Below, piece after piece: positions 1 to 63,007 of a stretch of 63,007 nucleotides of DNA. The notes under the pieces are model-generated. The model was given only the letters and a program-made list of their open reading frames with translations, had not been told where the DNA came from and made no database searches. How positions within the stretch are numbered: the stretch's first letter is position 1; the number at the start of each line of letters is the position of its first letter. Location: the NCBI GenBank assembly GCA_001244265.2, contig CDLV01000011.1, positions 1,674,001-1,737,007 of the forward strand, read 5' to 3'. This DNA is from Microbotryum violaceum (Eukaryota). The translations under genes were made by a program, and so were the position numbers.

Positions 1-1481
1 TCCCAGATCCGTGCCGCAACCGCGTCCACGACGTCCTGCATCCTGATCACCCCGGTCCCCCCTTAAGCTTGGCTGTGAACACGATATCTCTGCCGTAGCT
101 GGTCCTGCCCTTGCCCCACGGACGAAATCGACGAGCATGTCATCGAGCTTCTTGACGACTTCGGGCGGCGGGATGTCGGCTGCAAGGAAGTGTAGGATCT
201 TGGGGATGGCGTACCGATTGACGTAAAAGGCACGGATGTGGTGTGTGAGCCAGCGATGCTGAACCCCTTCCAGCGTCGCCTCGAGGCGTTCGATGAGATT
301 CGCGTAGGCGAGTTCGGTGTCGCCGCTCGGGTCGAAGGGGAGGCCGATCCACTCGAGCGACTCGCCTGCGGCCTTGACGACGAGCGGGCGTTGCCCCGGG
401 TCCCAGCGGCGTCCGATCGGTAGGACGACCGTCTTGTCCGTGTTGAGCCGGCCATTCGTTGCATGCCTCCAGTCGAGCGCCAGGTCATCGAGCAAGTTGA
501 GTGACCCCAAGCCCGCGACGGCGACGACAACGTCATCGGCAAAAGCAAGCGATGTAATGGCGCGGATCTGTGGGTACGGATGAAGTGCAGGTATGGAGAG
601 ATTCAGCGCGATGTTTCGACGGTGTAGAGCATCCAGAAACGGCTGAAACACGATGTCCCAGACCGACGACGACGCCGGGTCCCCTTGGCCGAGCCCACAC
701 GTCAGTCGTACCGGCGCCGTCAAGAACCCATTGATGATGTAGCGGGCCGAGGTCGAGTCACCCGAGTAGAGCATCCTCAGCACGCGAAGAAAGGTGGCAG
801 GAGCGCCCAGAGCGTCAAAGATGGCAAAGATCCAGTCATGCTCGACGAGGTCGTAGGCGGACGATTGGTCAAGAGATAAGAGTGCGGCCGCGGGGAACTC
901 GGTCCTGCGCGCGCCAACTTCCTCGATCAGGAGACGAAGGTGTAGTGCAGCGTCAGCCGATCGGCGGTCCTTGACGAATCCGTGCTGCTGCGGCGGGAGG
1001 AGATCGGTAGAATCTGGTTCAAACGGGCGACATAGACCTTGGTAAAGATCTTGTAATCGCACTCGCGCAGGGTGATCGGCCGGTACGACGAAAGTTCGGC
1101 GCGATCGGCATTCTTCTTGTGTCGCTTGAAGATGAGGCGCACGAGTCCTTGGCCCTGCTTGGGAGAGAGTGAGCCTCGCTCTATCATCGCGTTGTAGGCC
1201 TTGGTCAGCACCTTGGCCCACGCCTTGGGTGCGGTCTGGTAGAGTTCGTAGGGCACGCCCGACGGTCCCGGCGATCGCCCCGGGTGCGTCGTCCCGATCG
1301 CGGCCACGACCTCGTCCTCGGTGATTGGTCGCTGGAGTAAGTTGATCTGTGATTCCGAGAGTCGGCGCAGATGTAAGGCAAGTTTGCCTTACGCACCTTA
1401 TGTGGCACCTGGTATTTGAACTACATCAATTCAAATTGCTTTACTTTTGGATCAGGCGTTAGGGTGCGCGCTTGCCTTTCA
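1..1481 (-). mobile_element. LINE RT region, partial (same element as 9474-12881 and 51059-54463)
   Basis: Motifs SPGPSG, YRPITL, QHGF, GQGDP, AFADD; frameshift near 1005; TSD TATCTTT at 1482-1488. Confidence 0.92.
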
Positions 1482-3360
1482 TATCTTTCGATCACGAACG
1501 CCGGGAAGGGACGTCGAGTGCCATGCGGGCTTGTCGCGTTTGTGCAAGTAGAACGCAAAGGATTTGTGAACGCGAGACTCACCACCTTGACCCCCTTTAC
1601 TTGACCTTCGTCGTAGGTATTCAAACATTCAATATCAGTCTGTGCTCGCGCCTTAACAGAATGGGAACACCCGAGGAGGAGCCAAAGATGCTTATGTTCA
1701 CCATCACCGTTCTTTTTGTCCCCTTCCTCCTCGTCCTCACCTTCTTTGTTGCTGTCTTTTGGCGAAGAGTGGCCCAACTCGATCGAACCGCAAAGAGGAA
1801 TGTTGGGGTGGAAGCCATCTTCCCCTGCAGGAAAAAGTAGTGGGTAACGGAGAGGCATCGCGGACGGATGGAGCGAGCTAACGATTTGGTACTTGGGCCG
1901 ACCATCGGGACATCGATCACCGTGCACCTGGAGAATAAGGTCTTGCGGTCCACGATCTCCCGTGTTGGTGTCGGAATCGCAGATAAGCATCGCCATTTCC
2001 GTGCTCGACGTAGGAAGGTTGTGGGTACGTCGGTCCCGGCCTGGCGGGAGGCAGAGGCGCAGGATCCACTCTTTGGCCGTATCCCAACCTGCGCGAGCTT
2101 TGGCCGATGCGAACTCCCTCATAAAGCGATTGCCGGTGCGCAACATGGACTCGAGCTTGGTCAGCGTTGATCTTTGAATGCGAGTCTTTGCGCTGTCGGG
2201 TCCTTGAAGTCGTGTGTCGGTGGCCTCGGCCGGGTTGATCAGCCATATTTGAGCAAAGGCTGGGCGTTGATTCACGGCAGGGATCAGGGCGCCGAGTCGA
2301 TGGTAGAGGCGACCAAACACGCAAAACACGGTGGCTCCTAGTTCCCAGTGCTGAGCCTTGCAGTGGGTGCACACGGCCGTCTGCGGGCCGAGGTCGTCGC
2401 GGATCGAAACGTGGGGCTTGAGGGGTTTGAGCGCGATTCGAGCCCGGCGCACTCGCCTTTGCGGAGGTGGTGGTGGGGCGAGCCCAGCGTCGAGTTGGCC
2501 ATCGCGCTGACCACGCTGTCCGTTCTGCACAGCTGCACGGCGGGCTCGTATACGTGTCGCAATGCCAAGATCGGTTGCATTGTTGTCATGACGCGCGGGG
2601 ACTGATCTCGTTGATCGGTGCGGGACGAAGAGGAGGGTCGAGCCGCGGGGCGCCCAGCAGCGAGCGCTCGAGCTGGCCCATGGTACGGCGCTATCCTCGC
2701 GCCCAAGACTTGGCGAGGTTGCGATGGCCCTCCCTGAGTCCCTGGCGACCTTGGGACCGGGACATAGCAGCGAGGGTTTGTTCTTGAATGAGTGTCACTA
2801 AAATTGGATGAGAGTGAGAGGGAGAAAGGAAAGGTTCGAGGGAGTGGCGCAGGATTATTTACGTGGTTTGATTTGTTGTTCAGCCCCTAATGCCGCTGGT
2901 CGAATGCCATACGGGCAAATTGGTTGTTCAGCCCCTAATGCCGCTGGTCGACTGCCGGAATGACACTGACACCGCCGGCGCACCGCATCACGTGACAAAC
3001 GCCAGCCCTCGCCTCGCACGTCAGGCAGAGCTCTGCTGTAGAAGCAATATCATGTAAAGCCACGCGCTTGCGGTTCATTAAATGCAATATGAGTGGAAGC
3101 ATTGTTTTACGTGAGTGAAAAAAAGAAGGAAAATACTGGGAGCGCTGTAGCTTCGTTGGAACGGCGCAGAAAATACAAAAGCTACCACAGCGCTTGTACA
3201 TGACTTCTGATCAAAACATGGACACCACAGGCAGGTGCGGCAGACACAACAGTATGCTGGTACATCCACCACAGGCGGCCCGGAGGGCCGCAACCTAGTT
3301 AAAAACAGCGATTTTAGGTACATTCCTTAACTCACACTTTTTTTTTACTAGTTAGGGTAA
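1482..3360 (-). mobile_element. Helitron (type A) 5' part with degenerate RepHel N-terminal coding region
   Basis: ORF 1421-2530 (FGRLYHRLGAL..PAFAQIW..HPSAMPLRYPLLFPAGEDGF) matches the Helitron N-terminal region; mirror of 7594-9473. Confidence 0.9.
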
Positions 3361-5283
3361 TGTTGTAATTTACCGAATACAGGCCCAGCGTATGCTTCTA
3401 TTGACAATTTCAGCCCAGAGCGTCGTTCCCAACCGTCGCAACCGGTGCGGGGCCACCGCCTCATCAGCTCCTCTTTACTCATCGCTGTTAAGCCAGCTCC
3501 ACACGGCCAGCCCTGTCGATTGGGCACATCGCACCGTTTCTCACCCCGCCTTTCGCACGGTCTGACTTCCGCTAGCCTCGCGCGGTTGCATCGATTAAAT
3601 GGATTCCAAGGGTTACCCCGTCGACAAGAAAGTAGAGGTTTCCATGTTTTTGGGGGCGGAGGATCAAACCCGTTGAACAGATGAGAACGACGTGATTTGA
3701 CATTAGAAGGCAGAGGTTTCCAGGTTCTCCCTCATTCTCTCACACTTTTACTGTGCACTGCTTGAAGTGACGGTTCTCCACATGTAAATAAAGTCTTCTG
3801 ATACTACTCTATCTAGATGCAGCATCAAACAACCGGCGACCACCACAGAACAGGAACGTGTCCAACCAAATCAAAGTTCTGAGTTAACTATACTTTCCTT
3901 TGCTGCCCAACCCAATTAAAAGTCTGGAATTTCCACACCTCGAAAATGTGTTGACCATAAAATACGAACCCTTGATGGTCAACACTAGCGCTGGCGGATA
4001 TGGGTACGGCCGCTAGTTCTAGGGCAGCACCGGCACGCCGCAGCGGCTCGATTGCTTGGACCTGCTCCTGACTCTGAAGTGGCAGAGTGCAAAGTCAACG
4101 TACACCACGGGTTAGTATCACACTTCAGCCTTCTTGGGGAATAGATCTACGTATCGTAACGACGTGGCCGAAATCCGCATCGACGCCTTATAATCAGAGC
4201 CGGACTCCGGTAGACTCAAGGCTTCCCTCCGAAGGGTGTCCGCCAACAGTGTCCCAGACGTATCCGTGTGCGATTCCGCGTACTCGAAGTTAGCAGAAGG
4301 ATCCCACGGTTTCTGATCATTTAAGCGCGTACTTTCGCCATTGGAACGCATGGGCTGGTCGTGCTTGCAGTGCGCCAAGGGGGCGCAATGTCATTATGTC
4401 ATGCTTGATCGTCTCGGCCATTTTGTGCGAGATGAATTGGTCCGCCGGTTCGAGGATTGAAGCAAGCATCGTGATACTACTGTGAATGGGTGCAGGGCCT
4501 TGTGCGTTATGAAGGGACCTCCTGGATTCAACCCCACACGGCTGCGCCAGAACGGGTGAGCAATTTGTTCCGCATCCATACATAATGCCGCGAGTAAATG
4601 GTGCATTTACCAATTACGCGCGCGCGTCTACCCCCGAAGCTTGACCCATCTACCCCGGTAGTAAGGTGCAAAGTTCACTTACAAATGGTGCATTCTTCGC
4701 GTAAGTTGGTGCGTTTGCTCAGGAAGAAAGGTGCGTTTACCAATTAAGGATGGTGCATTTACCTGACGTAGCTGGGCAATTCGCTGTATCTCGTGTAGTA
4801 TGCCATGTATCACTTTGAAACTTGACGAGCCCTTTTACATGACCACCAAATACGTCCACACTTGGTAAGACGCACTCTCACCCGGACCTCATGTAGTTGA
4901 AGATCGTGCCTGTAACCCAACCCCCAAGGGTCCGCATTAGATCTGATCTGATCTGATCTGATGGGGGTCAGATCAAGTTCAGATCAACCAAGCCTCGAGG
5001 AAAAGAATCCAAAGTAGGCGGTACCTGGATGCTGTCATTGTGATTTGAAGTGCCAACTGCGCCCACCTGATCACTGCATGAGAGAGAATGCAGCGCGCCA
5101 TCTGCCATCTGCCATCGCCGCCACATTGGGTGTCGGCCCCGCGCCACAGAAGTACTACAGGGTGTGGTCCTCCTCTGATGCGCCTTCGTTGCAGTGTCAG
5201 GTGCTGACTCATTGCAAACACTTTCTCATAGGGATCACATGCGACCCAATCCAGTCATAGAAGCGGGGAGCTCCTCCAAAAAG
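3361..5283. repeat. Unidentified repeated flank 'U' (also ~25210-27471 inverted, 38014-39288 plus 44030-44672, and 56341-58262)
   Basis: Near-identical sequence abuts Helitron 5' ends in four places; clustered GGTGC(A/G)TT motifs at 4600-4765; no recognisable protein. Confidence 0.85.
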
Positions 5284-5459
5284 CGGCGGCTTAGCAAAGA
5301 AGATTAGGATTTCAACATGTAGACATGTAGAAGTCTTTATGTGCCAAATTAGGCAATTTCATGTCTCAGATCAGATCAAGATCAGATTAGTCAAGGCAGA
5401 ATCAGAAAAATCCAGATCAGATCTGATCTGACGGTGATCTGATCTAATGCGGATCCTTG
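4925..5459. mobile_element. MITE / non-autonomous TIR DNA transposon
   Basis: 19-bp TIR CAAGGGTCCGCATTAGATC / GATCTAATGCGGATCCTTG (1 mismatch) with (GATCT)n subterminal arrays at both ends; no clean TSD. Confidence 0.75.
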
Positions 5460-7259
5460 CCAATGAGTCAAGCTCGATTCTCGAAGCAGACAACCCAAGG
5501 CGCACATCAGGAACTCGTCCCAGGATACCAAAAATTAGCAACAATGTACAGATAAAGATTTGACGGGAATACTACACAAACGAAGGATCGCTCCACGCCA
5601 TCCGAGACAAGCCATTTTCGCCGAAACAAATGTTGCACTGACTCTTTTTCAACCCTTCGCCATACCCAAACACAAGATCGCCACGTCTTTCGTGGCACTA
5701 CCAGATCCAGATACAATATGTCCGATTAATCGACATGGTTCTTGTGCTTCTTGGGACCGTCTGCACGTCGGAGCAAAAGCGGGTTTCGTGCGCCGGGGAA
5801 TCAGCAAAAGTCTTTCTCGGCGCCGAAACTTCGTAGTGGTGCGAAGGCCAACCGTACACTTTGCCTCGTATTCCGTTTTTTGCTTGTCGTGTCTGTACGA
5901 TTGCAGCGCGTTATTCAGTGTGAAGAACAGTAGGCTTGACCGACTTCCTTTTCCGACGCAGGATTGGGATCCTCTGGGGGGAAAATACTCACGTCGATCC
6001 AGCCAAGTTTGAAGAATGCGCCAGCGAAGAAGGAACCTATGTGAGGTGAGGAGTCAATCAGAGAAATCTTTCGACTTTTTAAAAATCGGTCAGGTTCTCA
6101 CCTTGAACGTAGAAGCTTTCCATCCCTGCGAGGGTCCCCAAACAAATCAAAAGGAGCTCAAAAGAGTTAATCCCCTCCCGAATAGACTCTTCGGATGGAA
6201 TGGGGGTTGCGAGGGACTGACCTTCATGATCCCACTCCTCATCTTGTCGGCCGTTTCCTCGGCCGTAACTTGTCGTTTTTCCGTCTTGACCGCCACACTT
6301 GAGTCGGGTAACATGGTCGTTATCAGTGCCGAGGAGGTGGATGCACCAGTTCGGGCGACCAGACCGAGCTCGGTCACTCCCAAGCCAGACCAGACCAGGC
6401 CAGGTGATCGAGGCGATAAGGGGGGAATGAAGAGAGAGCTTACCCTTTCGAACTGATGGAAACACCTTGATGTGCCAAACTATCCTTGGTCGAACTGAAC
6501 GGGAAATCCAAAACCCATATTCGAATCAGCAACCCCCCTCTCGGAATTCGAGCCCTCCACAGAGTCCTTCCACAATTTCCTCTCAACTCCAATTTTAGAA
6601 TCCTGGACTAGACTAGACCCCCCCTCCCCCCCCGCCGCCCCAAGCCGAAACAAACTCACCTCACAGCCGAATTCCAAGCGGCCACGGCCAACTTGACCGT
6701 ATAAGCGAGACCCCCGAACAGGGCCAAGGTAAGGAAGAGCTTGATCAGGTTCCAGATCAACGAGCCGCTGTCGACGTCGTGGGATTTGGCCATGGCTGGC
6801 CCGGGGTGAAGTCGATGAGGTGTGGGATGAGGCTGAGCTGAGGTGCAGTGGAGGCTTGAAGATTATTGAGGTTGGAGTGTGGCTCCTGGAGAGGGGGGGT
6901 GGGGGCGGTGTAATAGGCGAAGAGGGGTGTAAGTAGAACAACGGCTCAAACGACGAGGTGCACAGCCAACAGACAACACCGCGTCCTATTACTAAACCAG
7001 AGGCCCTCAGGAGGTCCAAGCTCAAAACACCCCCTCGTTATTATTTTGTATCAAGCCTAATTAGATTTCACATATTCGGTTATCTGCACAAAATCAATGT
7101 TTCTTGAAAAGGGGGGGTTGGACTTATGTAAAGTCACAGCCACTAGATCCATAGCTCCCACACTCATGAAAGCATCAAAAGTGTGATTCCAATCATGTGA
7201 GCACCAACCATCCTTCCGAGTCCTATTCCATGGTGTAAGTCACATCATCTGGTCCAGAA

Positions 7260-7548
7260 GTGTAGGGCTGGAAGCACACGTTCCAGATGGGACAACTCAC
7301 GGGATCTCCTTGCCTGAGCCCGCACAGCATGCGCACAGCCTCCGTGAGGTATCCATTGATGATGTAAAGAAGTGACACCGATCTGTAGATGACGTTGAGA
7401 AGGCCAAGGAAGCGTTCTGGCGCTCCCATCGCTCGAAAGACGCTCATGATCCAGTCATGATCAACCAGGTTATATGCGCTTTCCTGATCAAGCGATAGGA
7501 GAGCCGAGTCAGCAAGGTCAAGAGAGCGAATTGGTTCAAGGAGCAGGG
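7260..7548 (-). pseudogene. LINE reverse transcriptase fragment
   Basis: ALLSLDQESAYNLVDHDWI...IINGYLT...GLRQGDPVSCPIWN (RT domains 3-4). Confidence 0.88.
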
Positions 7549-8022
7549 GAGCAGGGACAAGTGACTTCCCGCGTCTGAGGCCTTTACCCTATATTACCCT
7601 AACTAGTTACCCTAACTAGTAACTAGTAAAAAAAAGGTGTGGGTTAAGGAATGTACCTAAAATCGCTGTTTTTAACTAGGTTGCGGCCCTCCGGGCCGCC
7701 TGTGGTGGATGTACCAGCATACTGTTGTGTCTGCCGCACCTGCCTGTGGTGTCCATGTTTTGATCAGAAGTCATGTACAAGCGCTGTGGTAGCTTTTGTA
7801 TTTTCTGCGCCGTTCCAACGAAGCTACAGCGCTCCCAGTATTTTCCTTCTTTTTTTCACTCACGTAAAACAATGCTTCCACTCATATTGCATTTAATGAA
7901 CCGCAAGCGCGTGGCTTTACATGATATTGCTTCTACAGCAGAGCTCTGCCTGACGTGCGAGGCGAGGGCTGGCGTTTGTCACGTGATGCGGTGCGCCGGC
8001 GGTGTCAGTGTCATTCCGGCAG

Positions 8023-8100
8023 TCGACCAGCGGCATTAGGGGCTGAACAACCAATTTGCCCGTATGGCATTCGACCAGCGGCATTAGGGGCTGAACAACA
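8023..8100 (+). repeat. 48-bp minisatellite in Helitron 5' region (~1.6 units)
   Basis: TCGACCAGCGGCATTAGGGGCTGAACAACCAATTTGCCCGTATGGCAT unit. Confidence 0.85.
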
Positions 8101-9473
8101 AATCAAACCACGTAAATAATCCTGCGCCACTCCCTCGAACCTTTCCTTTCTCCCTCTCACTCTCATCCAATTTTAGTGACACTCATTCAAGAACAAACCC
8201 TCGCTGCTATGTCCCGGTCCCAAGGTCGCCAGGGACTCAGGGAGGGCCATCGCAACCTCGCCAAGTCTTGGGCGCGAGGGTAGCGCGGTAGCGCGGTACC
8301 ACGGGCCCGCGGCTCGACCCTCCTCTTCGTCCCGCACCGATCAACGAGATCAGTCCCCGCGCGTCATGACAACAATGCAACCGATCTTGGCATTGCGACA
8401 CGTATAAGAGCCCGCCGTGCAGCTGTGCAGAACGGACAGCGTGGTCAGCGCGATGGCCAACTCGACGCTGGGCTCGCCCCACCACCACCTCCGCAAAGGC
8501 GAGTGCGCCGGGCTCGAATCGCGCTCAAACCCCTCAAGCCCCACGTTTCGATCCGCGACGACCTCGGCCCGCAGACGGCCGTGTGCACCCACTGCAAGGC
8601 TCAGCACTGGGAACTAGGAGCCACCGTGTTTTGCGTGTTTGGTCGCCTCTACCATCGACTCGGCGCCCTGATCCCTGCCGTGAATCAACGCCCAGCCTTT
8701 GCTCAAATATGGCTGATCAACCCGGCCGAGGCCACCGACACACGACTTCAAGGACCCGACAGCGCAAAGACTCGCATTCAAAGATCAACGCTGACCAAGC
8801 TCGAGTCCATGTTGCGCACCGGCAATCGCTTTATGAGGGAGTTCGCATCGGCCAAAGCTCGCGCAGGTTGGGATACGGCCAAAGAGTGGATCCTGCGCCT
8901 CTGCCTCCCGCCAGGCCGGGACCGACGTACCCACAACCTTCCTACGTCGAGCACGGAAATGGCGATGCTTATCTGCGATTCCGACACCAACACGGGAGAT
9001 CGTGGACCGCAAGACCTTATTCTCCAGGTGCACGGTGATCGATGTCCCGATGGTCGGCCCAAGTACCAAATCGTTAGCTCGCTCCATCCGTCCGCGATGC
9101 CTCTCCGTTACCCACTACTTTTTCCTGCAGGGGAAGATGGCTTCCACCCCAACATTCCTCTTTGCGGTTCGATCGAGTTGGGCCACTCTTCGCCAAAAGA
9201 CAGCAACAAAGAAGGTGAGGACGAGGAGGAAGGGGACAAAAAGAACGGTGATGGTGAACATAAGCATCTTTGGCTCCTCCTCGGGTGTTCCCATTCTGTT
9301 AAGGCGCGAGCACAGACTGATATTGAATGTTTGAATACCTACGACGAAGGTCAAGTAAAGGGGGTCAAGGTGGTGAGTCTCGCGTTCACAAATCCTTTGC
9401 GTTCTACTTGCACAAACGCGACAAGCCCGCATGGCACTCGACGTCCCTTCCCGGCGTTCGTGATCGAAAGATA

Positions 9474-12400: not shown

Positions 12401-12881
12401 TTTGGCTTCGGGGTTATGAGTCAAGGGAGGGATCAGCAGACACAGGCAGAAAGTCGGCTTTGAGGGGCCAGGGACTGCTGAGGTGGAGGTTTTGAGGGGC
12501 CTCCACCGCGTCTTGTTGTGACCGAGCATAGACTTAGGACTTCGCGGGTCAGGGTAGTTGCGCAGTCGATCTCCTGTCTTTGTCTCGACCGAGTTGGGAA
12601 GTGACGGCGGGGTGGGCCTCTTGTCGCTTAGTAAATTGTTTTATTACTCCTTTCTCTTTCTCTCTCTCTCTCCTTCTCTCTCTCATTCGTCTCCTGGGGG
12701 GGAGCAACCGCTTGGCTGGGGCACTTGAATCCCAAGTATCGGATTGGTGGACACCGGCCCGTTTCTCGCATCTTGCGGGCGGTTTGTGTTATCATCGTCG
12801 ACTTCCATCTAGTTTTTCCGTAGGCCAATCAGGGGGAACAGGAATTGGGGGCAATATGATGAACAAGTTCTACAAAAAAAA
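9474..12881 (+). mobile_element. 5'-truncated LINE (L1/Tx1-like) inserted in Helitron RepHel
   Basis: RT ORF 9649-~10900 (YRPITL, GQGDP, FADD), frameshift, C-terminal CLVC..HSFFGC zinc finger ending 12223, poly(A) 12874-12884, TSD AAAGATA at 9467-9473 and 12882-12888. Confidence 0.93.
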
Positions 12882-12888
12882 AAAGATA

Positions 12889-17968: not shown

Positions 17969-18325
17969 AATTAGAGGAGCGCGCCATACTCCGGCCAGAC
18001 CACCGGAAACATCCTTGCTATACCGTATGCCTTTGTCAACGTCGATATCTTTTATACATCACAACAAGCCGTTCAAGCCATACCAACACCCATGCACAGT
18101 TTTCCTTTTTGGCTGTTCATCTCAAGGTACATAATCTCTCCCGTCATGCATGCAATGACGACAAGGACGACGCGGGCGATCTCCCTTCACTTCCTCAGTC
18201 GTTTCGGCAATTTTTCCAAAGTCTATATGCCCGTCCAAACGACACAACCAAGCTCAACATGGGAGGCTGATCAGAACGCAGAACACGATGGCCGATTACC
18301 CGGTCCTCCAGTGCCTTCACCCATG

Positions 18326-18712: not shown

Positions 18713-18783
18713 GACTAGTCAGGTTCGGGTTCCACCCGAGCCAAAGATTTTAGAAACGCAGTTTTGAAGCAAACGTAGTATAC

Positions 18784-19280: not shown

Positions 19281-19293
19281 CCCCCCCGTGCTG

Positions 19294-20703
<1,410 letters not shown>

Positions 20704-50500: not shown

Positions 50501-51051
50501 CGGTCTCGTGGAGATCAGGATAGCGCGAAGGATCGGGTATCTCGGCCGAGATCATCTTGTCGATCGCTTCCGTCGACAAAGGATGATCGTCCGGCGCGAG
50601 GGTGATGAGGATATGGGCATGTGGCAGGCCCCGCTTCTGATACTCAATCACATGTGTATGCGTCAGAACCACGCCAAAACAGCCTGCACGTTGCTTGTTG
50701 CCAAAAACGTCGTCGCAGAGTCGGTTCAGCTTGGCTTCAAACACTCGTGCAATGAGATCCGGACGGTTGCATGCTTTGTCGTTCGGCCCCAGTGCAGCCT
50801 TGGTTTGCGGTGATTCAGGAACGCACGTCATCGTGATGAGCAGCGGAGGCTTTCCATGTTTGACAACGCACGCCATCGCATCCAGGTATCGCTGCATGAT
50901 GTCGCGCGGTCTATTCTTGAACATCGAGCCCAAAGTCATCGAGCGTCCAATTTGGTCCGGGGTTAAGCCGTTGATGCCTTGGGTCGTGGTGAGTCGTAGG
51001 TTTTCTTAATGCAACTGGATGTAGTTTAGTCGATCGGCCTCAGCCTGGGAG
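47550..51051 (-). pseudogene. Helitron RepHel C-terminal part, mirror copy
   Basis: Same Rep and Pif1 motifs; additional frameshifts ~49655 and ~48342. Confidence 0.93.
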
Positions 51052-51058
51052 TATCTTT

Positions 51059-54000: not shown

Positions 54001-54463
54001 TCAAACGGGCGACATAGACCTTGGTAAAGATCTTGTAATCGCACTCGCGCAGGGTGATCGGCCGGTACGACGAAAGTTCGGCGCGATCGGCATTCTTCTT
54101 GTGTCGCTTGAAGATGAGGCGCACGAGTCCTTGGCCCTGCTTGGGAGAGAGTGAGCCTCGCTCTATCATCGCGTTGTAGGCCTTGGTCAGCACCTTGGCC
54201 CACGCCTTGGGTGCGGTCTGGTAGAGTTCGTAGGGCACGCCCGACGGTCCCGGCGATCGCCCCGGGTGCGTCGTCCCGATCGCGGCCACGACCTCGTCCT
54301 CGGTGATTGGTCGCTGGAGTAAGTTGATCTGTGATTCCGAGAGTCGGCGCAGATGTAAGGCAAGTTTGCCTTACGCACCTTATGTGGCACCGGTATTTGA
54401 ATTACATCAATTCAAATTGCTTTACTTTTGGATCAGGCGTTAGGGTGCTGCGCTTGCCTTTCA
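51059..54463 (-). mobile_element. 5'-truncated LINE, mirror copy
   Basis: Mirror of 9474-12881; TSD TATCTTT at 51052-51058 and 54464-54470. Confidence 0.92.
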
Positions 54464-57400
54464 TATCTTTCGATCACGAACGCCGGGAAGGGACGTCGAG
54501 TGCCATGCGGGCTTGTCGCGTTTGTGCAAGTAGAACGCAAAGGATTTGTGAACGCGAGACTCACCACCTTGACCCCCTTTACTTGACCTTCGTCGTAGGT
54601 ATTCAAACATTCAATATCAGTCTGTGCTCGCGCCTTAACAGAATGGGAACACCCGAGGAGGAGCCAAAGATGCTTATGTTCACCATCACCGTTCTTTTTG
54701 TCCCCTTCCTCCTCGTCCTCACCTTCTTTGTTGCTGTCTTTTGGCGAAGAGTGGCCCAACTCGATCGAACCGCAAAGAGGAATGTTGGGGTGGAAGCCAT
54801 CTTCCCCTGCAGGAAAAAGTAGTGGGTAACGGAGAGGCATCGCGGACGGATGGAGCGAGCTAACGATTTGGTACTTGGGCCGACCATCGGGACATCGATC
54901 ACCGTGCACCTGGAGAATAAGGTCTTGCGGTCCACGATCTCCCGTGTTGGTGTCGGAATCGCAGATAAGCATCGCCATTTCCGTGCTCGACGTAGGAAGG
55001 TTGTGGGTACGTCGGTCCCGGCCTGGCGGGAGGCAGAGGCGCAGGATCCACTCTTTGGCCGTATCCCAACCTGCGCGAGCTTTGGCCGATGCGAACTCCC
55101 TCATAAAGCGATTGCCGGTGCGCAACATGGACTCGAGCTTGGTCAGCGTTGATCTTTGAATGCGAGTCTTTGCGCTGTCGGGTCCTTGAAGTCGTGTGTC
55201 GGTGGCCTCGGCCGGGTTGATCAGCCATATTTGAGCAAAGGCTGGGCGTTGATTCACGGCAGGGATCAGGGCGCCGAGTCGATGGTAGAGGCGACCAAAC
55301 ACGCAAAACACGGTGGCTCCTAGTTCCCAGTGCTGAGCCTTGCAGTGGGTGCACACGGCCGTCTGCGGGCCGAGGTCGTCGCGGATCGAAACGTGGGGCT
55401 TGAGGGGTTTGAGCGCGATTCGAGCCCGGCGCACTCGCCTTTGCGGAGGTGGTGGTGGGCGAGCCCAGCGTCGAGTTGGCCATCGCGCTGACCACGCTGT
55501 CCGTTCTGCACAGCTGCACGGCGGGCTCGTATACGTGTCGCAATGCCAAGATCGGTTGCATTGTTGTCATGACGCGCGGGGACTGATCTCGTTGATCGGT
55601 GCGGGACGAAGAGGAGGGTCGAGCCGCGGGCGCCCAGCAGCGAGCGCTCGAGCTGGCCCATGGTACGGCGCTATCCTCGCGCCCAAGACTTGGCGAGGTT
55701 GCGATGGCCCTCCCTGAGTCCCTGGCGACCTTGGGACCGGGACATAGCAGCGAGGGTTTGTTCTTGAATGAGTGTCACTAAAATTGGATGAGAGTGAGAG
55801 GGAGAAAGGAAAGGTTCGAGGGAGTGGCGCAGGATTATTTACGTGGTTTGATTTGTTGTTCAGCCCCTAATGCCGCTGGTCGAATGCCATACGGGCAAAT
55901 TGGTTGTTCAGCCCCTAATGCCGCTGGTCGACTGCCGGAATGACACTGACACCGCCGGCGCACCGCATCACGTGACAAACGCCAGCCCTCGCCTCGCACG
56001 TCAGGCAGAGCTCTGCTGTAGAAGCAATATCATGTAAAGCCACGCGCTTGCGGTTCATTAAATGCAATATGAGTGGAAGCATTGTTTTACGTGAGTGAAA
56101 AAAAGAAGGAAAATACTGGGAGCGCTGTAGCTTCGTTGGAACGGCGCAGAAAATACAAAAGCTACCACAGCGCTTGTACATGACTTCTGATCAAAACATG
56201 GACACCACAGGCAGGTGCGGCAGACACAACAGTATGCTGGTACATCCACCACAGGCGGCCCGGAGGGCCGCAACCTAGTTAAAAACAGCGATTTTAGGTA
56301 CATTCCTTAACTCACACTTTTTTTTTACTAGTTAGGGTAATGTTGTAATTTACCGAATACAGGCCCAGCGTATGCTTCTATTGACAATTTCAGCCCAGAG
56401 CGTCGTTCCCAACCGTCGCAACCGGTGCGGGGCCACCGCCTCATCAGCTCCTCTTTACTCATCGCTGTTAAGCCAGCTCCACACGGCCAGCCCTGTCGAT
56501 TGGGCACATCGCACCGTTTCTCACCCCGCCTTTCGCACGGTCTGACTTCCGCTAGCCTCGCGCGGTTGCATCGATTAAATGGATTCCAAGGGTTACCCCG
56601 TCGACAAGAAAGTAGAGGTTTCCATGTTTTTGGGGGCGGAGGATCAAACCCGTTGAACAGATGAGAACGACGTGATTTGACATTAGAAGGCAGAGGTTTC
56701 CAGGTTCTCCCTCATTCTCTCACACTTTTACTGTGCACTGCTTGAAGTGACGGTTCTCCACATGTAAATAAAGTCTTCTGATACTACTCTATCTAGATGC
56801 AGCATCAAACAACCGGCGACCACCACAGAACAGGAACGTGTCCAACCAAATCAAAGTTCTGAGTTAACTATACTTTCCTTTGCTGCCCAACCCAATTAAA
56901 AGTCTGGAATTTCCACACCTCGAAAATGTGTTGACCATAAAATACGAACCCTTGATGGTCAACACTAGCGCTGGCGGATATGGGTACGGCCGCTAGTTCT
57001 AGGGCAGCACCGGCACGCCGCAGCGGCTCGATTGCTTGGACCTGCTCCTGACTCTGAAGTGGCAGAGTGCAAAGTCAACGTACACCACGGGTTAGTATCA
57101 CACTTCAGCCTTCTTGGGGAATAGATCTACGTATCGTAACGACGTGGCCGAAATCCGCATCGACGCCTTATAATCAGAGCCGGACTCCGGTAGACTCAAG
57201 GCTTCCCTCCGAAGGGTGTCCGCCAACAGTGTCCCAGACGTATCCGTGTGCGATTCCGCGTACTCGAAGTTAGCAGAAGGATCCCACGGTTTCTGATCAT
57301 TTAAGCGCGTACTTTCGCCATTGGAACGCATGGGCTGGTCGTGCTTGCAGTGCGCCAAGGGGGGCGCAATGTCATTATGTCATGCTTGATCGTCTCGGCC

Positions 57401-57904
57401 ATTTTGTGCGAGATGAATTGGTCCGCCGGTTCGAGGATTGAAGCAAGCATCGTGATACTACTGTGAATGGGTGCAGGGCCTTGTGCGTTATGAAGGGACC
57501 TCCTGGATTCAACCCCACACGGCTGCGCCAGAACGGGTGAGCAATTTGTTCCGCATCCATACATAATGCCGCGAGTAAATGGTGCATTTACCAATTACGC
57601 GCGCGCGTCTACCCCCGAAGCTTGACCCATCTACCCCGGTAGTAAGGTGCAAAGTTCACTTACAAATGGTGCATTCTTCGCGTAAGTTGGTGCGTTTGCT
57701 CAGGAAGAAAGGTGCGTTTACCAATTAAGGATGGTGCATTTACCTGACGTAGCTGGGCAATTCGCTGTATCTCGTGTAGTATGCCATGTATCACTTTGAA
57801 ACTTGACGAGCCCTTTTACATGACCACCAAATACGTCCACACTTGGTAAGACGCACTCTCACCCGGACCTCATGTAGTTGAAGATCGTGCCTGTAACCCA
57901 ACCC

Positions 57905-58438
57905 CAAGGGTCCGCATTAGATCTGATCTGATCTGATCTGATGGGGTCAGATCAAGTTCAGATCAACCAAGCCTCGAGGAAAAGAATCCAAAGTAGGCGG
58001 TACCTGGATGCTGTCATTGTGATTTGAAGTGCCAACTGCGCCCACCTGATCACTGCATGAGAGAGAATGCAGCGCGCCATCTGCCATCTGCCATCGCCGC
58101 CACATTGGGTGTCGGCCCCGCGCCACAGAAGTACTACAGGGTGTGGTCCTCCTCTGATGCGCCTTCGTTGCAGTGTCAGGTGCTGACTCATTGCAAACAC
58201 TTTCTCATAGGGATCACATGCGACCCAATCCAGTCATAGAAGCGGGGAGCTCCTCCAAAAAGCGGCGGCTTAGCAAAGAAGATTAGGATTTCAACATGTA
58301 GACATGTAGAAGTCTTTATGTGCCAAATTAGGCAATTTCATGTCTCAGATCAGATCAAGATCAGATTAGTCAAGGCAGAATCAGAAAAATCCAGATCAGA
58401 TCTGATCTGACGGTGATCTGATCTAATGCGGATCCTTG
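57905..58438. mobile_element. MITE, copy within terminal repeat 2
   Basis: Same TIRs as 4925-5459. Confidence 0.75.
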
Positions 58439-60230
58439 CCAATGAGTCAAGCTCGATTCTCGAAGCAGACAACCCAAGGCGCACATCAGGAACTCGTCCC
58501 AGGATACCAAAAATTAGCAACAATGTACAGATAAAGATTTGACGGGAATACTACACAAACGAAGGATCGCTCCACGCCATCCGAGACAAGCCATTTTCGC
58601 CGAAACAAATGTTGCACTGACTCTTTTTCAACCCTTCGCCATACCCAAACACAAGATCGCCACGTCTTTCGTGGCACTACCAGATCCAGATACAATATGT
58701 CCGATTAATCGACATGGTTCTTGTGCTTCTTGGGACCGTCTGCACGTCGGAGCAAAAGCGGGTTTCGTGCGCCGGGGAATCAGCAAAAGTCTTTCTCGGC
58801 GCCGAAACTTCGTAGTGGTGCGAAGGCCAACCGTACACTTTGCCTCGTATTCCGTTTTTTGCTTGTCGTGTCTGTACGATTGCAGCGCGTTATTCAGTGT
58901 GAAGAACAGTAGGCTTGACCGACTTCCTTTTCCGACGCAGGATTGGGATCCTCTGGGGGAAAATACTCACGTCGATCCAGCCAAGTTTGAAGAATGCGCC
59001 AGCGAAGAAGGAACCTATGTGAGGTGAGGAGTCAATCAGAGAAATCTTTCGACTTTTTAAAAATCGGTCAGGTTCTCACCTTGAACGTAGAAGCTTTCCA
59101 TCCCTGCGAGGGTCCCCAAACAAATCAAAAGGAGCTCAAAAGAGTTAATCCCCTCCCGAATAGACTCTTCGGATGGAATGGGGTTGCGAGGGACTGACCT
59201 TCATGATCCCACTCCTCATCTTGTCGGCCGTTTCCTCGGCCGTAACTTGTCGTTTTTCCGTCTTGACCGCCACACTTGAGTCGGGTAACATGGTCGTTAT
59301 CAGTGCCGAGGAGGTGGATGCACCAGTTCGGGCGACCAGACCGAGCTCGGTCACTCCCAAGCCAGACCAGACCAGGCCAGGTGATCGAGGCGATAAGGGG
59401 GAATGAAGAGAGAGCTTACCCTTTCGAACTGATGGAAACACCTTGATGTGCCAAACTATCCTTGTCGAACTGAACGGGAAATCCAAAACCCATATTCGAA
59501 TCAGCAACCCCCCTCTCGGAATTCGAGCCCTCCACAGAGTCCTTCCACAATTTCCTCTCAACTCCAATTTTAGAATCCTGGACTAGACTAGACCCCCCCT
59601 CCCCCCCCCGCCGCCCCAAGCCGAAACAAACTCACCTCACAGCCGAATTCCAAGCGGCCACGGCCAACTTGACCGTATAAGCGAGACCCCCGAACAGGGC
59701 CAAGGTAAGGAAGAGCTTGATCAGGTTCCAGATCAACGAGCCGCTGTCGACGTCGTGGGATTTGGCCATGGCTGGCCCGGGGTGAAGTCGATGAGGTGTG
59801 GGATGAGGCTGAGCTGAGGTGCAGTGGAGGCTTGAAGATTATTGAGGTTGGAGTGTGGCTCCTGGAGAGGGGGGTGGGGCGGTGTAATAGGCGAAGAGGG
59901 GTGTAAGTAGAACAACGGCTCAAACGACGAGGTGCACAGCCAACAGACAACACCGCGTCCTATTACTAAACCAGAGGCCCTCAGGAGGTCCAAGCTCAAA
60001 ACACCCCCTCGTTATTATTTTGTATCAAGCCTAATTAGATTTCACATATTCGTTATCTGCACAAAATCAATGTTTCTTGAAAAGGGGGGTTGGACTTATG
60101 TAAAGTCACAGCCACTAGATCCATAGCTCCCACACTCATGAAAGCATCAAAATGTGATTCCAATCATGTGAGCACCAACCATCCTTCCGAGTCCTATTCC
60201 ATGGTGTAAGTCACATCATCTGGTCCAGAA

Positions 60231-60518
60231 GTGTAGGGCTGGAAGCACACGTTCCAGATGGGACAACTCACGGGATCTCCTTGCCTGAGCCCGCACAGCA
60301 TGCGCACAGCCTCCGTGAGGTATCCATTGATGATGTAAAGAAGTGACACCGATCTGTAGATGACGTTGAGAAGGCCAAGGAAGCGTTCTGGCGCTCCCAT
60401 CGCTCGAAAGACGCTCATGATCCAGTCATGATCAACCAGGTTATATGCGCTTTCCTGATCAAGCGATAGGAGAGCCGAGTCAGCAAGGTCAAGAGAGCGA
60501 ATTGGTTCAAGGAGCAGG
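60231..60518 (-). pseudogene. LINE RT fragment (copy of 7260-7548)
   Basis: ORF 60194-60418 is identical to ORF 7223-7447. Confidence 0.85.
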
Positions 60519-60562
60519 GGACAGGGACAAGTGACTTCCCGCTCTGAGGCCTTTACCCTATA

Positions 60563-63007
60563 TTACCCTAACTAGTTACCCTAACTAGTAACTAGTAAAA
60601 AAAAGGTGTGGGTTAAGGAATGTACCTAAAATCGCTGTTTTAACTAGGTTGCGGCCCTCCGGGCCGCCTGTGGTGGATGTACCAGCATACTGTTGTGTCT
60701 GCCGCACCTGCCTGTGGTGTCCATGTTTTGATCAGAAGTCATGTACAAGCGCTGTGGTAGCTTTTGTATTTTCTGCGCCGTTCCAACGAAGCTACAGCGC
60801 TCCCAGTATTTTCCTTCTTTTTTCACTCACGTAAAACAATGCTTCCACTCATATTGCATTTAATGAACCGCAAGCGCGTGGCTTTACATGATATTGCTTC
60901 TACAGCAGAGCTCTGCCTGACGTGCGAGGCGAGGGCTGGCGTTTGTCACGTGATGCGGTGCGCCGGCGGTGTCAGTGTCATTCCGGCAGTCGACCAGCGG
61001 CATTAGGGCTGAACAACCAATTTGCCCGTATGGCATTCGACCAGCGGCATTAGGGGCTGAACAACAAATCAAACCACGTAAATAATCCTGCGCCACTCCC
61101 TCGAACCTTTCCTTTCTCCCTCTCACTCTCATCCAATTTTAGTGACACTCATTCAAGAACAAACCCTCGCTGCTATGTCCCGGTCCCAAGGTCGCCAGGG
61201 ACTCAGGGAGGGCCATCGCAACCTCGCCAAGTCTTGGGCGCGAGGGTAGCGCGGTAGCGCGGTACCACGGGCCCGCGGCTCGACCCTCCTCTTCGTCCCG
61301 CACCGATCAACGAGATCAGTCCCCCGCCGTCATGACAACAATGCAACCGATCTTGGCATTGCGACACGTATAAAGCCCGCCGTGCAGCTGTGCAGAACGG
61401 ACAGCGTGGTCAGCGCGATGGCCAACTCGACGCTGGGCTCGCCCCACCACCACCTCCGCAAAGGCGAGTGCGCCGGGCTCGAATCGCGCTCAAACCCCTC
61501 AAGCCCCACGTTTCGATCCGCGACGACCTCGGCCCGCAGACGGCCGTGTGCACCCACTGCAAGGCTCAGCACTGGGAACTAGGAGCCACCGTGTTTTGCG
61601 TGTTTGGTCGCCTCTACCATCGACTCGGCGCCCTGATCCCTGCCGTGAATCAACGCCCAGCCTTTGCTCAAATATGGCTGATCAACCCGGCCGAGGCCAC
61701 CGACACACGACTTCAAGGACCCGACAGCGCAAAGACTCGCATTCAAAGATCAACGCTGACCAAGCTCGAGTCCATGTTGCGCACCGGCAATCGCTTTATG
61801 AGGGAGTTCGCATCGGCCAAAGCTCGCGCAGGTTGGGATACGGCCAAAGAGTGGATCCTGCGCCTCTGCCTCCGCCAGGCCGGGACCGACGTACCCACAA
61901 CCTTCCTACGTCGAGCACGGAAATGGCGATGCTTATCTGCGATTCCGACACCAACACGGAGATCGTGGACCGCAAGACCTTATTCTCCAGGTGCACGGTG
62001 ATCGATGTCCGATGGTCGGCCCAAGTACCAAATCGTTAGCTCGCTCCATCCGTCCGCGATGCCTCTCCGTTACCCATACTTTTTCCTGCAGGGGAAGATG
62101 GCTTCCACCCAACATTCCTCTTTGCGGTTCGATCGAGTTGGGCCACTCTTCGCCAAAAGACAGCAACAAAGAAGGTGAGGACGAGGAGGAAGGGACAAAA
62201 AGAACGGTGATGGTGAACATAAGCATCTTTGGCTCCTCCTCGGGGTTCCCATTCTGTTAAGGCGCGAGCACAGACTGATATTGAATGTTTGAATACCTAC
62301 GACGAAGGTCAAGTAAAGGGGTCAAGGTGGTGAGTCTCGCGTTCACAAATCCTTTGCGTTCTACTTGCACAAACGCGACAAGCCCGCATGGCACTCGACG
62401 TCCCTTCCCGGCGTTCGTGATCGAAAGATATGAAAGGCAAGCGCGGCACCCTAACGCCTGATCCAAAAGTAAAGCAATTTGAATTGATGTAGTTCAAATA
62501 CCAGGTGCCACATAAGGTGCGTAAGGCAAACTTGCCTTACATCTGCGCCGACTCTCGGAATCACAGATCAACTTACTCCAGCGACCAATCACCGAGGACG
62601 AGGTCGTGGCCCGATCGGGACGACGCACCCGGGGCGATCGCCGGACCGTCGGGCGTGCCTACGAACTCTACCAGACCGCACCCAAGGCGTGGGCCAAGGT
62701 GCTGACCAAGGCCTACAACGCGATGATAGAGCGAGGCTCACTCTCTCCCAAGCAGGGCCAAGGACTCGTGCGCCTCATCTTCAAGCGACACAAGAAGAAT
62801 GCCGATCGCGCCGAACTTTCGTCGTACCGGCCGATCACCCTGCGCGAGTGCGATTACAATCTTTACCAAGGTCTATGTCGCCCGTTTGAACCAGATTCTA
62901 CCGGATCTCCTCCCGCCGCAGCAGCACGGATTCGTCAAGGACCGCCGATCGCTGACGCTGCACTACACCTTCGTCTCCTGATCGAGGAAGTTGGCGCGCG
63001 CAGACCG
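60563..63007 (+). mobile_element. Helitron type A 5' part plus start of LINE (copy of 7594-10057)
   Basis: Colinear with 7594-10057, many single-base deletions. Confidence 0.88.

What the first reader, a model, noticed from the sequence alone, without database searches (positions are those of the whole stretch)
1..63007. ~53-kb quadripartite unit: two giant inverted arms, two spacers and terminal redundancy (circle or tandem array)
Seen: 7594-30206 and 35335-56340 are reverse complements over a ~16.3-kb core, separated by spacers 30207-35334 and 56341-60562 (= 3361-7593); 1-10057 recurs at 52982. Joining the ends gives a ~52,981-bp circle with a plastid- or 2-micron-like IR layout, built of nuclear transposons plus RPS10. 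Inference: an extrachromosomal circle, a tandemly amplified palindromic unit, or a flip-flopping chromosomal palindrome that the assembler looped through.
Basis: partly seen in the sequence, partly recalled or inferred. Interest (0 to 1): 0.82.

Follow-up and report, generated by a model that had tools for sequence, protein, structure and literature searches.

The report
Transposon-built giant palindrome around fungal RPS10
A 63-kb contig of an anther-smut fungus holds a real, old pair of about 22-kb inverted transposon blocks flanking the ribosomal protein gene RPS10. It reads as a 53-kb loop, most likely because a repeat-rich chromosomal region was assembled onto itself rather than because it is a free DNA circle.

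Summary
The geometry is confirmed. Bases 1-10057 recur at 52982-63007 (period about 52,981). Arms 7594-30206 and 35335-56334 are reverse complements. Spacers are 30207-35334 and 3355-7593.

The organism is a Microbotryum. RPS10 in spacer 1 is intact, has three introns, and encodes exactly the annotated 153-aa protein.

Each arm is a composite: a Helitron with a nested LINE, a 2.9-kb stretch, and a 5-kb deletion-derivative Helitron. Both inner arm ends are exact Helitron 3' termini (CTGG|T).

New point: the spacers are not independent. Spacer 2's right end and spacer 1's left end are two halves of one old LINE reverse-transcriptase ORF. So arm A is a clean 22.6-kb insertion at an A|T site.

The arms are old paralogues: 111 substitutions, a LINE insertion with a 4-bp target duplication, and a 342-bp insertion with an 8-bp duplication. 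That excludes a palindromic-read artefact.

The terminal copies differ almost only by homopolymer indels at the contig ends, so they are one DNA read twice. Short-read depth fits spacer:arm:element of about 1:2:3 and shows no amplification. A sister species carries this RPS10 and the same Helitron on a 143-kb contig.

Topology (chromosomal loop, partial tandem or circle) remains unproven; I favour chromosomal.

The parts
1..3354 (-). Outer end of arm A', second reading of 52982-56334. Bases 1-1421 carry arm-A alleles.
3355..5281 (-). 5' 1.9 kb of Helitron H1' (left part of spacer 2; = 56335-58260). The Helitron 5' terminus is at 5281.
   Evidence: same 5' end sequence at 25209 and at 44674 (reverse complement)
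5282..7260 (.). Q: low-copy part of spacer 2 with no recognisable gene (= 58261 to about 60230).
   Evidence: Lowest depth of the laid stretch (438-445 / 6.97 / 25.2 in X1 / X2 / X12)
7261..7593 (-). Old LINE, RT part downstream of the split point.
   Evidence: (RVT_1 7226-7588)
7594..7620 (+). Outer junction: the 13-nt unit TTACCCTAACTAG repeated 2.1 times, next to a LINE-borne TTACCCTA.
7620..16493 (+). H1: Helitron lacking its 5' 1.9 kb. RepHel coding at 8539-9444 and 12935-16389. The 3' hairpin plus CTGG ends at 16493.
9467..12881 (+). LINE nested in H1 (RVT_1, zf-RVT). The same insertion is present in arm A' at about 51.07-54.48 kb.
   Evidence: Empty-site joint 9466>12882 in X12
16494..19081 (+). 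About 100-nt duplicate of the Helitron 3' end (arm A only), then stretch X. X continues at 24882-25208.
19082..24881 (.). Arm-A-only 5.8-kb patch of Copia fragments in both orientations, flanked by a 71-nt direct duplication.
25209..30206 (+). G: deletion-derivative Helitron (Rep domain positions 1-154 at 29530-30117). It has a 342-nt insertion at 26602-26943 with an 8-nt target duplication. Its 3' tail, 30039-30206, is only about 85% like that of G'.
30207..32700 (-). Old LINE, part upstream of the split point (ORF2 N-terminus 30192-31634, zinc-knuckle ORF1 31802-32308). This is the left part of spacer 1; the upper end is approximate.
33977..34668 (+). RPS10 (eS10) gene. Exons 33977-34009, 34090-34108, 34183-34552 and 34629-34668, with GT-AG introns.
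35335..44674 (-). G', interrupted by an arm-A'-only LINE at 39289-44029 (+ strand, A-rich tail, 4-nt target duplication CCGA).
44675..47448 (-). X'
47449..58260 (-). H1': full-length Helitron with nested LINE. Its 3' terminus is at 47449-47474 and its 5' terminus at 58260.
52982..63007 (+). Terminal redundancy: a second reading of 1-10057, with low consensus quality from about 58.9 kb onward.

Best explanation
The window is a whole, repeat-rich nuclear contig of a Microbotryum anther-smut fungus. It holds a real and evolutionarily old inverted duplication. Two copies of a composite transposon block (Helitron with nested LINE, 2.9-kb stretch X, 5-kb deletion-derivative Helitron) face each other tail to tail across a 5.1-kb island that carries the intact RPS10 gene.

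Arm A is a secondary copy. It lacks the first 1.9 kb of the block and sits as a clean insertion at an A|T site inside an old LINE, whose two halves now form the inner edges of the two 'spacers'. Its 3' side is an exact Helitron terminus. Its 5' side is a stuttered 13-nt junction beside 8 nt of microhomology. I infer that the Helitron machinery, or replication-based copying primed at a Helitron end, placed it there.

Shown: the repeat geometry, the transposon anatomy, the split LINE, insertions that postdate the duplication, and an intact RPS10.

Inferred: the locus is chromosomal and about single-copy. The 10-kb terminal redundancy would then arise because unanchored reads in the 11.5-14 kb near-identical outer arm parts let the assembler run onto the same spacer 2 again. 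That could happen with or without a further, partial copy of the A' block (a chain A'-S2-A-S1-A').
For: Geometry.

Organism and gene: the RPS10 exon is 98% identical to the M. saponariae protein and 96% to M. intermedium. The spliced CDS translates exactly to the 153-aa M. silenes-dioicae protein.

Helitron anatomy: Helitron_like_N and PIF1 domains. The terminus motif occurs 4 times, at 16493, 30206, 35335(-) and 47449(-), against 0 expected. T follows CTGG at all 5 termini read.

Split LINE: a Microbotryum LINE protein aligns with residues 1-125 ending 30 nt from 30207 and with residues 135-192 at 7262-7435. At residue level ...QHGFIPCR | I*GKGLRRGKSLV... runs on in frame when 30207 is joined to 7593, with spacing like the intact LINE (34 versus 30 residues between conserved motifs).

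Age: 111 substitutions and 78 indel columns in 16,530 aligned columns. There is also a LINE insertion with a target duplication and A-tail, and a 342-nt insertion with an 8-nt duplication. Both alleles of arm variants are seen in an independent run: 17247 at 677 of 1216, and 18043 at 471 of 744 in X1.

Terminal copies are one DNA: 43 of 48 differences are 1-nt indels, mostly in G/C runs, clustered at 0-1.4 kb and 6-10 kb. The 5 substitutions are all arm A/A' variant sites. Both contig ends lie in the nested LINE, the most repeated element (depth up to 45,000 in X1).

No amplification: depth of Q: X: element E is 441: 952-1084: 1137 in X1, 7: 26: 30-33 in X2 and 25: 40-44: 43 in X12. The Helitron core is 9-14 times Q.

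Sister species: RPS10 (g12478) and a RepHel 100% identical over the matched part (g12472) lie on one 142,978-nt contig. There is one accession for each, and only 1 RepHel of this lineage of at least 588 aa on that contig.
Against: The contig does close on itself, and each spacer (4-5 kb) is short enough for single long reads to span, so both local palindromes are probably physical. With only two arm copies these junctions allow nothing but a circle or a head-to-tail array.

In X1 the 1 : 2.3 : 2.6 depth ratio fits the circle or array stoichiometry (1:2:3) better than a three-copy chain (1:3:5).

The left end of the contig has no private substitutions that would mark a third, diverged copy.

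If arm A' is also a clean insertion, the host DNA itself maps as a circle, which a simple chromosomal history does not explain.

Absolute copy number was never calibrated, because no single-copy control was laid. In two independent assemblies RPS10 sits on small contigs (63 kb here, 143 kb in the sister species, 12 kb in a short-read assembly).

The tail of arm A (30039-30206) is about 15% diverged from that of A' while the preceding 339 nt in the aligned stretch from 29700 are identical. Simple transposition of one donor does not predict this.
Confidence: 0.62

Rival explanations
1. True head-to-tail repetition in a chromosome. Either two or more full 53-kb units, or an inverted-triplication-like chain, collapsed by the assembler into one self-overlapping contig.
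For: Closure and near-identity of the terminal copies. Concerted evolution between direct units would keep units alike while the inverted arms diverge. The X2 ratio of 1:3.8:4.5 and the A':A allele depths in X1 of 1.25 and 1.7 lie between a 1:1 and a 2:1 model. Inverted triplications are the known integrated product of origin-dependent inverted-repeat amplification (passages of PMC4689423).
Against: Q has the lowest depth of the stretch, and Helitron:Q is 9-14. The sister genome has about 6-9 near-identical RepHel loci, which suits one unit rather than several. The indel differences pile up at both window ends, as at low-coverage contig ends. There is one RPS10 accession on the sister species' 143-kb contig.
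Confidence: 0.2
2. [quoted passage not shown]
For: [quoted passage not shown] There are no exits within the contig. The X1 stoichiometry is about 1:2:3. RPS10 lies on small contigs in three assemblies.
Against: The loops of such a dimer should come from opposite sides of the amplified segment. Here spacer 2's right edge and spacer 1's left edge are halves of one LINE ORF. Arm-specific insertions and 0.67% substitutions mean long inheritance, which an acentric circle at about one copy would not survive. No telomere array, no centromere-type satellite, and no replication or partition gene were found. The sister-species contig is 143 kb with one RPS10. Three searches found no report of extrachromosomal DNA or palindromes in Microbotryum among the listed titles and abstracts.
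Confidence: 0.08
3. A giant Helitron, or a rolling-circle concatemer of one, that read through two of its own terminators and captured the RPS10 island. The closure junction would be the 3'-to-5' joint of a transposition intermediate or of tandem copies.
For: Every arm boundary next to spacer 1 is an exact Helitron 3' terminus. Arm A is a clean A|T insertion. The Helitron 5' terminus abuts Q at the closure. Terminator bypass and gene capture are known Helitron behaviour (recalled, not checked here).
Against: The sequence before the 5' terminus at 5282 has no hairpin-plus-CTRR terminator. Arm A lies in the opposite orientation inside the supposed captured part. RPS10 is identical to the annotated orthologue and no second copy is known. 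Intermediates are transient, yet this structure is at genome-like depth in runs of several studies.
Confidence: 0.06
4. Sequencing artefact: a palindromic long read (missed adapter or fold-back chimera) assembled as a contig.
For: Long-read consensus errors are evident: homopolymer indels, and indels seen against all three runs at 4378, 14836 and 16734.
Against: The arms differ by 111 substitutions, two transposon insertions with target duplications and a 5.8-kb patch. The spacers are 4-5 kb of different sequence. Arm variants and the stretch itself occur in short-read contigs of independent studies.
Confidence: 0.02

Closest known systems
Inverted dimeric plasmid and inverted triplication of origin-dependent inverted-repeat amplification (yeast SUL1; PMC4689423, passages read)
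   Same: [quoted passage not shown] There is inverted homology at both junctions: the 13-nt unit outside, Helitron tails inside.
   Different: The loops are 4-5 kb, not short. The two loops were once contiguous (split LINE), which the model's geometry does not allow. The arms are old and diverged, not newly amplified. No selection for dosage is evident and the gene lies in a loop, not in the arms.
Helitron rolling-circle transposons, including composite and deletion-derivative forms
   Same: RepHel with Helitron_like_N and PIF1 domains. A 3' hairpin 10 nt before CTGG, followed by host T. No target duplication. An A|T target for arm A. An internally deleted non-autonomous copy whose deletion joint (13264>16458) occurs in three runs.
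   Different: The mobile-looking unit is about 17-18 kb and spans two Helitrons plus the DNA between them. Arm A starts at an internal site with a 13-nt stutter instead of the family's 5' end. Host bases at the family's 5' ends are not A.
Large palindromes of non-recombining sex chromosomes (e.g. human Y amplicons; recalled, with review PMC3308322 seen only in the listing)
   Same: Arms of tens of kilobases with a unique spacer, in a genus whose non-recombining mating-type regions are enriched in Helitrons and Copia (PMC10502011 passages).
   Different: Arm identity is 99.3%, not 99.9% or higher. The arms hold transposons, not amplified genes. The only host gene is in the spacer. Location on a mating-type chromosome is untested.
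Plastid quadripartite genome and the yeast 2-micron plasmid
   Same: Two inverted repeats separating two single-copy regions in a closing map.
   Different: No organelle genes, no FLP-type recombinase, no rRNA or tRNA genes. Circularity and flip-flop isomers are not shown.
Self-overlapping contigs that long-read assemblers give for circles or collapsed repeats
   Same: Ten kilobases of end overlap that differs only by consensus errors concentrated at the ends, with both ends in a high-copy repeat.
   Different: None that the sequence alone can show. This is why the topology is open.

Membership tests
Helitron (rolling-circle transposon) | RepHel protein with Rep (Helitron_like_N) and PIF1-type helicase domains | tested here: met
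   (E 2e-30 to 9e-38; PIF1 E 6e-39). A 1370-aa Microbotryum RepHel maps to 8539-9444 and 12935-16389. Frames are broken in the window, possibly by consensus indels.
Helitron (rolling-circle transposon) | 3' hairpin followed by CTRR, inserted before a host T, without target duplication | tested here: met
   CCCGTTAA/TTAACGGG stem, then ...CACTGG|T at 5 of 5 termini read. No duplication flanks arm A.
Helitron (rolling-circle transposon) | Conserved 5' terminus shared by copies, next to a host A | tested here: inconclusive
   The same 5' end is found in 3 copies (5281, 25209, 44674), but the host bases are T/C or G. Arm A begins at an internal site after a host A.
Inverted dimer of origin-dependent inverted-repeat amplification | Two inverted copies with short interrupted inverted repeats at both junctions | tested here: met
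   13-nt unit at 7594-7620 versus its complement at the A' edge. Helitron tails are inverted across spacer 1.
Inverted dimer of origin-dependent inverted-repeat amplification | Loops derive from the two opposite flanks of the amplified segment | tested here: not met
   The spacer 2 right edge and the spacer 1 left edge are contiguous halves of one LINE ORF.
Inverted dimer of origin-dependent inverted-repeat amplification | Replication origin inside the arms; free circular form | not testable with these tools
   No origin predictor for this fungus and no long reads.
Extrachromosomal circle with inverted repeats (2-micron or plastid type) | Own recombinase, replication or partition genes, or organelle genes | tested here: not met
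   Pfam on 24 + 35 + 130 ORFs. Rfam 0 hits and tRNA 0 hits.
Extrachromosomal circle with inverted repeats (2-micron or plastid type) | Physical circularity and both spacer orientations | not testable with these tools
   Only short contigs could be laid.
Tandemly amplified array | Unit depth several-fold above single-copy sequence | tested here: inconclusive
   Q is the lowest-depth part, and Helitron:Q is 9-14 against about 6-9 near-identical loci in a sister genome. This points to about one unit, but no single-copy control was laid.
Palindromic-read assembly artefact | Arms identical but for random errors, no spacer, no arm-specific events | tested here: not met

The most novel reading that the evidence does not exclude
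The 53-kb map is literal. It would be a stably inherited, roughly single-copy circular inverted dimer, built from a composite Helitron block, that carries the genome's only RPS10 gene. Being essential, it could not be lost, and it would be shared by several closely related Microbotryum lineages.
Probability: 0.07. Interest if true: 0.85.

Novelty: new member of a known kind. Interest (0 to 1): 0.36.

Why it matters
If chromosomal, this is a well-resolved example of how Helitrons build very large inverted duplications. One edge of the second copy is an exact Helitron terminus and the other is a stuttered microhomology junction, and the second copy landed cleanly inside a LINE.

It also shows an essential, highly expressed gene surviving as the only host gene in 53 kb of transposons. 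It lies between 99%-identical inverted arms that could invert it or produce hairpin RNA.

It further warns that such loci assemble as pseudo-circles. The small chance that the circle is real would make it an unprecedented fungal replicon.

Tried and rejected

Read laying: the single call covered 1-20000, so spacer 1 and RPS10 depth were never measured. Only contigs of 1.2 kb or less were returned, and none bridges an arm/spacer boundary by 31 nt on both sides.

Runs that gave no usable evidence. Run X23 gave 4 tiny matches; this is no evidence of absence. They might mean RPS10 without its Helitron flanks in some strains, but this is only a lead.

Negative scans: no telomere repeats, and no rRNA, tRNA or Rfam hits.

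Spacer ORFs other than RPS10 and the LINE pieces look non-coding. The 160 nt next to 7593 was tested as a possible Helitron 5' remnant and is not one; it is LINE coding sequence.

Mechanisms considered. Break-induced copying from a resident Helitron tail would explain the diverged tail of arm A, but not the loss-free A|T insertion. Two independent transpositions of one donor would explain the clean ends, but not the diverged tail or the closure.

Literature and other searches. Microbotryum with palindrome (8 papers), with Helitron and inverted repeat (14), and with extrachromosomal (5) gave nothing on such a structure in the listed titles and abstracts. The Atlas search only re-confirmed eS10. 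Supplementary tables of PMC10502011, which were closed, may list where these Helitron copies and small contigs lie.

Full report
**1. Observation**

- Bases 1-10057 recur at 52982-63007, at 99.5% over 10,063 columns.
- Six reverse-complement blocks join 7620-30207 to 35334-56334 over 16,530 aligned columns.
A 26-nt Helitron terminus motif ends at 30206 and begins at 35335 on the other strand. It occurs 4 times in the window against none in 100 shuffles.
- Spacer 1 (30207-35334) is unique in the window, apart from a 70-nt Helitron-tail match and its own 285-nt palindrome.
- Spacer 2 needs one correction. Its left 1.9 kb (3355-5281) is the 5' part of the Helitron that forms the outer end of arm A', and it has two more copies inside the arms.

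**2. Organism and the host gene**

No genome is held for the window. The S10_plectin ORF at 34074-34553 is 98% identical to a Microbotryum saponariae protein and 96% to M. intermedium.

Reading the DNA and testing splice sites by script gives four exons: 33977-34009, 34090-34108, 34183-34552 and 34629-34668, with GT-AG introns. Their translation equals the annotated 153-aa M. silenes-dioicae protein, which is also the C-terminal 153 residues of the M. lychnidis-dioicae protein. RPS10 is therefore an intact, intron-bearing gene and not a retrocopy. It is the only recognisable host gene in the unit.

**3. Anatomy of the arms**

Pfam scans of 24, 35 and 130 ORFs, and a 1370-aa Microbotryum RepHel laid on the window, resolve arm A into these parts:
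- **H1**, a Helitron (7620-16493; Rep and PIF1 helicase at 8539-9444 and 12935-16389), interrupted by a LINE (9467-12881).
- **X**, a 2.9-kb stretch (16494-19081 and 24882-25208).
- **G**, a 5-kb deletion-derivative Helitron (25209-30206), whose Rep domain stops at profile position 154.

Independent short-read contigs support two of these features. X12 has the LINE-free form of H1 (joint 9466>12882). X1, X2 and X12 all have the deletion joint of the G type (13264/5>16458).

All five Helitron 3' ends read have the hairpin CCCGTTAA/TTAACGGG, then ...CACTGG, then a host T. So both inner ends of the palindrome are exact Helitron termini.

Arm A' is the same block in reverse. It keeps the first 1.9 kb of H1', up to the family's 5' end at 58260 (= 5281). 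Arm A lacks that part.

**4. The two spacers were once one piece**

The ORF at 30192-31634 (minus strand) has only Microbotryum relatives, 5 of 5 hits. Two of them carry RVT_1 or an endonuclease domain. Spacer 2 has an RVT_1 fragment at 7226-7588, also on the minus strand.

In LINE sense, spacer 1's left edge matches positions 120-527 of the nested LINE and spacer 2's right edge matches positions 582-854. A Microbotryum LINE protein aligns with residues 1-125 ending 30 nt before 30207, and with residues 135-192 at 7262-7435.

At residue level the reading ...QHGFIPCR | I*GKGLRRGKSLV...ALLSLDQ runs on in frame when 30207 is joined to 7593. There are 34 residues between conserved motifs, against 30 in the intact LINE.

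Arm A together with its 13-nt stutter (7594-30206) is therefore a loss-free insertion between an A (7593) and a T (30207) inside an old LINE.
- Its 3' edge is a canonical Helitron end.
- Its 5' edge is TTACCCTAACTAG repeated 2.1 times, beside a LINE-borne TTACCCTA. The native Helitron sequence has this 13-mer once.
- Its last 168 nt are only about 85% like the tail of G', although the 339 nt before them in the aligned stretch (29700-30038) are identical.

This mixture is not fully explained. I infer placement by the Helitron machinery starting at an internal site, or replication-based copying primed at a Helitron end.

**5. The arms are old paralogues, not an artefact**

They differ by 111 substitutions and 78 indel columns. 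They also differ by three arm-specific events:
- a LINE in A' (39289-44029), with a 4-nt target duplication and an A-rich tail;
- a 342-nt element in A, with an 8-nt duplication;
- a 5.8-kb patch of Copia fragments in A, flanked by a 71-nt duplication.

Of the 40 listed places where short-read contigs differ from the window, 8 are arm A/A' variant sites. At 17247 and 18043, run X1 shows both alleles (677 of 1216; 471 of 744). A missed-adapter or fold-back read is excluded.

**6. The terminal redundancy**

Of 48 differences between the end copies, 43 are single-base indels. Most are in G or C runs, and they cluster in the first 1.4 kb and the last 4 kb of the contig. The 5 substitutions all fall on arm A/A' variant sites, where bases 1-1421 carry the arm-A letter. 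The left end has no private substitution.

Both ends of the window lie in the nested LINE, the most repeated element (depth up to about 45,000 in X1). I read this as a whole contig with poorly covered ends, in which the same DNA was read twice and unanchored arm reads were placed on either arm.

**7. Copy number**

The stretch 29000-37000 is held by 22 of 23 listed runs from 7 studies. On 1-20000, contig depths were as follows.

| Region | X1 | X2 | X12 |
|---|---|---|---|
| Q (5432-6882) | 438-445 | 6.97 | 25.2 |
| X (16.5-18.9 kb) | 952-1084 | 26.4 | 40-44 |
| E, the Helitron 5' part | 1137 | 30-33 | 43 |
| Helitron core | about 3940-4120 | 90 | 361 |

- The X1 ratio (1 : 2.3 : 2.6) fits the unit's own stoichiometry of 1:2:3. 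X2 and X12 deviate in opposite directions.
- Helitron:Q is 9-14. A sister genome has about 6-9 near-identical RepHel loci. This suits about one unit per genome.
- Contig totals of 21-26 Mb at 64-fold different depths suggest that Q is near single-copy depth. That is an inference: no single-copy control was laid, and S1 was not covered.

**8. Sister species**

RPS10 lies on 727-kb and 1.46-Mb contigs in M. saponariae and M. intermedium. It lies on a 142,978-nt contig in M. silenes-dioicae and on a 12,189-nt contig in a short-read M. lychnidis-dioicae assembly.

The best relative of the window's RepHel (100% over the matched part) is gene g12472 on that same 143-kb contig, six gene numbers before RPS10 (g12478). 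Each has one accession, and no second long RepHel of this lineage is on that contig. So in a close relative the locus is embedded in at least 143 kb and is not a concatemer of 53-kb units. This is indirect evidence for a chromosomal setting.

**9. What it most likely is**

My reading is a chromosomal, roughly single-copy, transposon-built palindrome around RPS10. It would have been assembled onto itself either because the near-identical 11.5-14 kb outer arm parts could not be anchored, or because a further partial copy of the A' block exists (confidence 0.62).

Against this:
- Both 4-5-kb spacers should be spanned by single reads.
- With two arm copies only a circle or an array satisfies all junctions.
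- If A' too is a clean insertion, the host DNA itself maps circularly.

The rivals are a true head-to-tail repetition (0.20), a free circle (0.08), a Helitron-derived concatemer or intermediate (0.06) and a read artefact (0.02).

**10. Comparison with known systems**

- **Origin-dependent inverted-repeat amplification.** The layout matches the circular inverted dimer of this model (passages of PMC4689423). The model's geometry fails on the split LINE, and the arms are old.
- **Plastid and 2-micron plasmid.** The likeness is geometric only. No recombinase, replication, rRNA or tRNA genes were found.
- **Microbotryum transposon landscape.** Helitrons, Copia and Ty3 are reported to expand in non-recombining mating-type regions of Microbotryum (passages of PMC10502011). 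That paper has no occurrence of 'palindrom'. Its supplements, which I could not open, may place these copies.
- **Prior reports.** Three literature searches gave no report of such a structure in this genus among the listed titles and abstracts.

**11. Verdict**

The structure is real, larger than usual and mechanistically instructive, but it is of a known kind. The exciting reading, a circle, is unlikely and could be tested with the long reads of the source assembly.

Noticed in passing
window 32811-33095: A 285-nt self-complementary stretch (89%) in spacer 1, between the 5' end of the old LINE and the RPS10 promoter region.
   Followed up: no
window 16494-16595: Arm A alone has about 100 extra nt right after the H1 terminus, ending in a second copy of the last 16 nt of the Helitron 3' end (AACGGGTTCCCACTGG) before a T. 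This looks like a minimal Helitron-end insertion at the same site.
   Followed up: partly
window 27876-28057 and 37476-37609: A 48-nt tandem repeat inside G has 3.8 copies in arm A and 2.8 in arm A'. An 88-nt repeat with 4.7 copies lies in the Copia patch (20871-21283).
   Followed up: no
window 13264-16458 and 9466-12882: Short-read contigs of other strains show an internally deleted Helitron (joint 13264/5>16458 in X1, X2 and X12) and an H1-type copy without the nested LINE (X12, 7 nt shared at the joint).
   Followed up: partly
window 5076-5413: In run X12 a contig at single-copy-like depth (31) replaces 5077-5412, which covers the Helitron 5' terminus and the first 131 nt of Q, by 30 other letters. 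Only 22 letters lie on the shorter side, so this is a weak hint that the Helitron-Q adjacency exists in altered form in another lineage.
   Followed up: no
window 4378, 14836, 16734, 2968 and many sites in 13650-16387: The window differs from the contigs of all three laid runs by single-base indels and by substitutions shared by both arms. These are consensus errors of an unpolished long-read assembly, or private variants. RepHel frames are broken at such sites, so the integrity of the Helitron genes cannot be judged.
   Followed up: partly
window 19082-24881: The 'Copia insertion' is not a simple element. RVT_2 lies on the minus strand (19297-20703), and gag and integrase pieces lie on the plus strand (22096-23810). 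It has internal inverted repeats, no terminal LTR pair, and a 71-nt flanking duplication.
   Followed up: partly
window 15-16.5 kb versus 16.5-19 kb: Arm divergence is uneven: 0.44% substitutions over 7620-16503 but 1.2% over 16566-19083. This could reflect partial homogenisation, or mixing of reads in the unanchored outer part.
   Followed up: no
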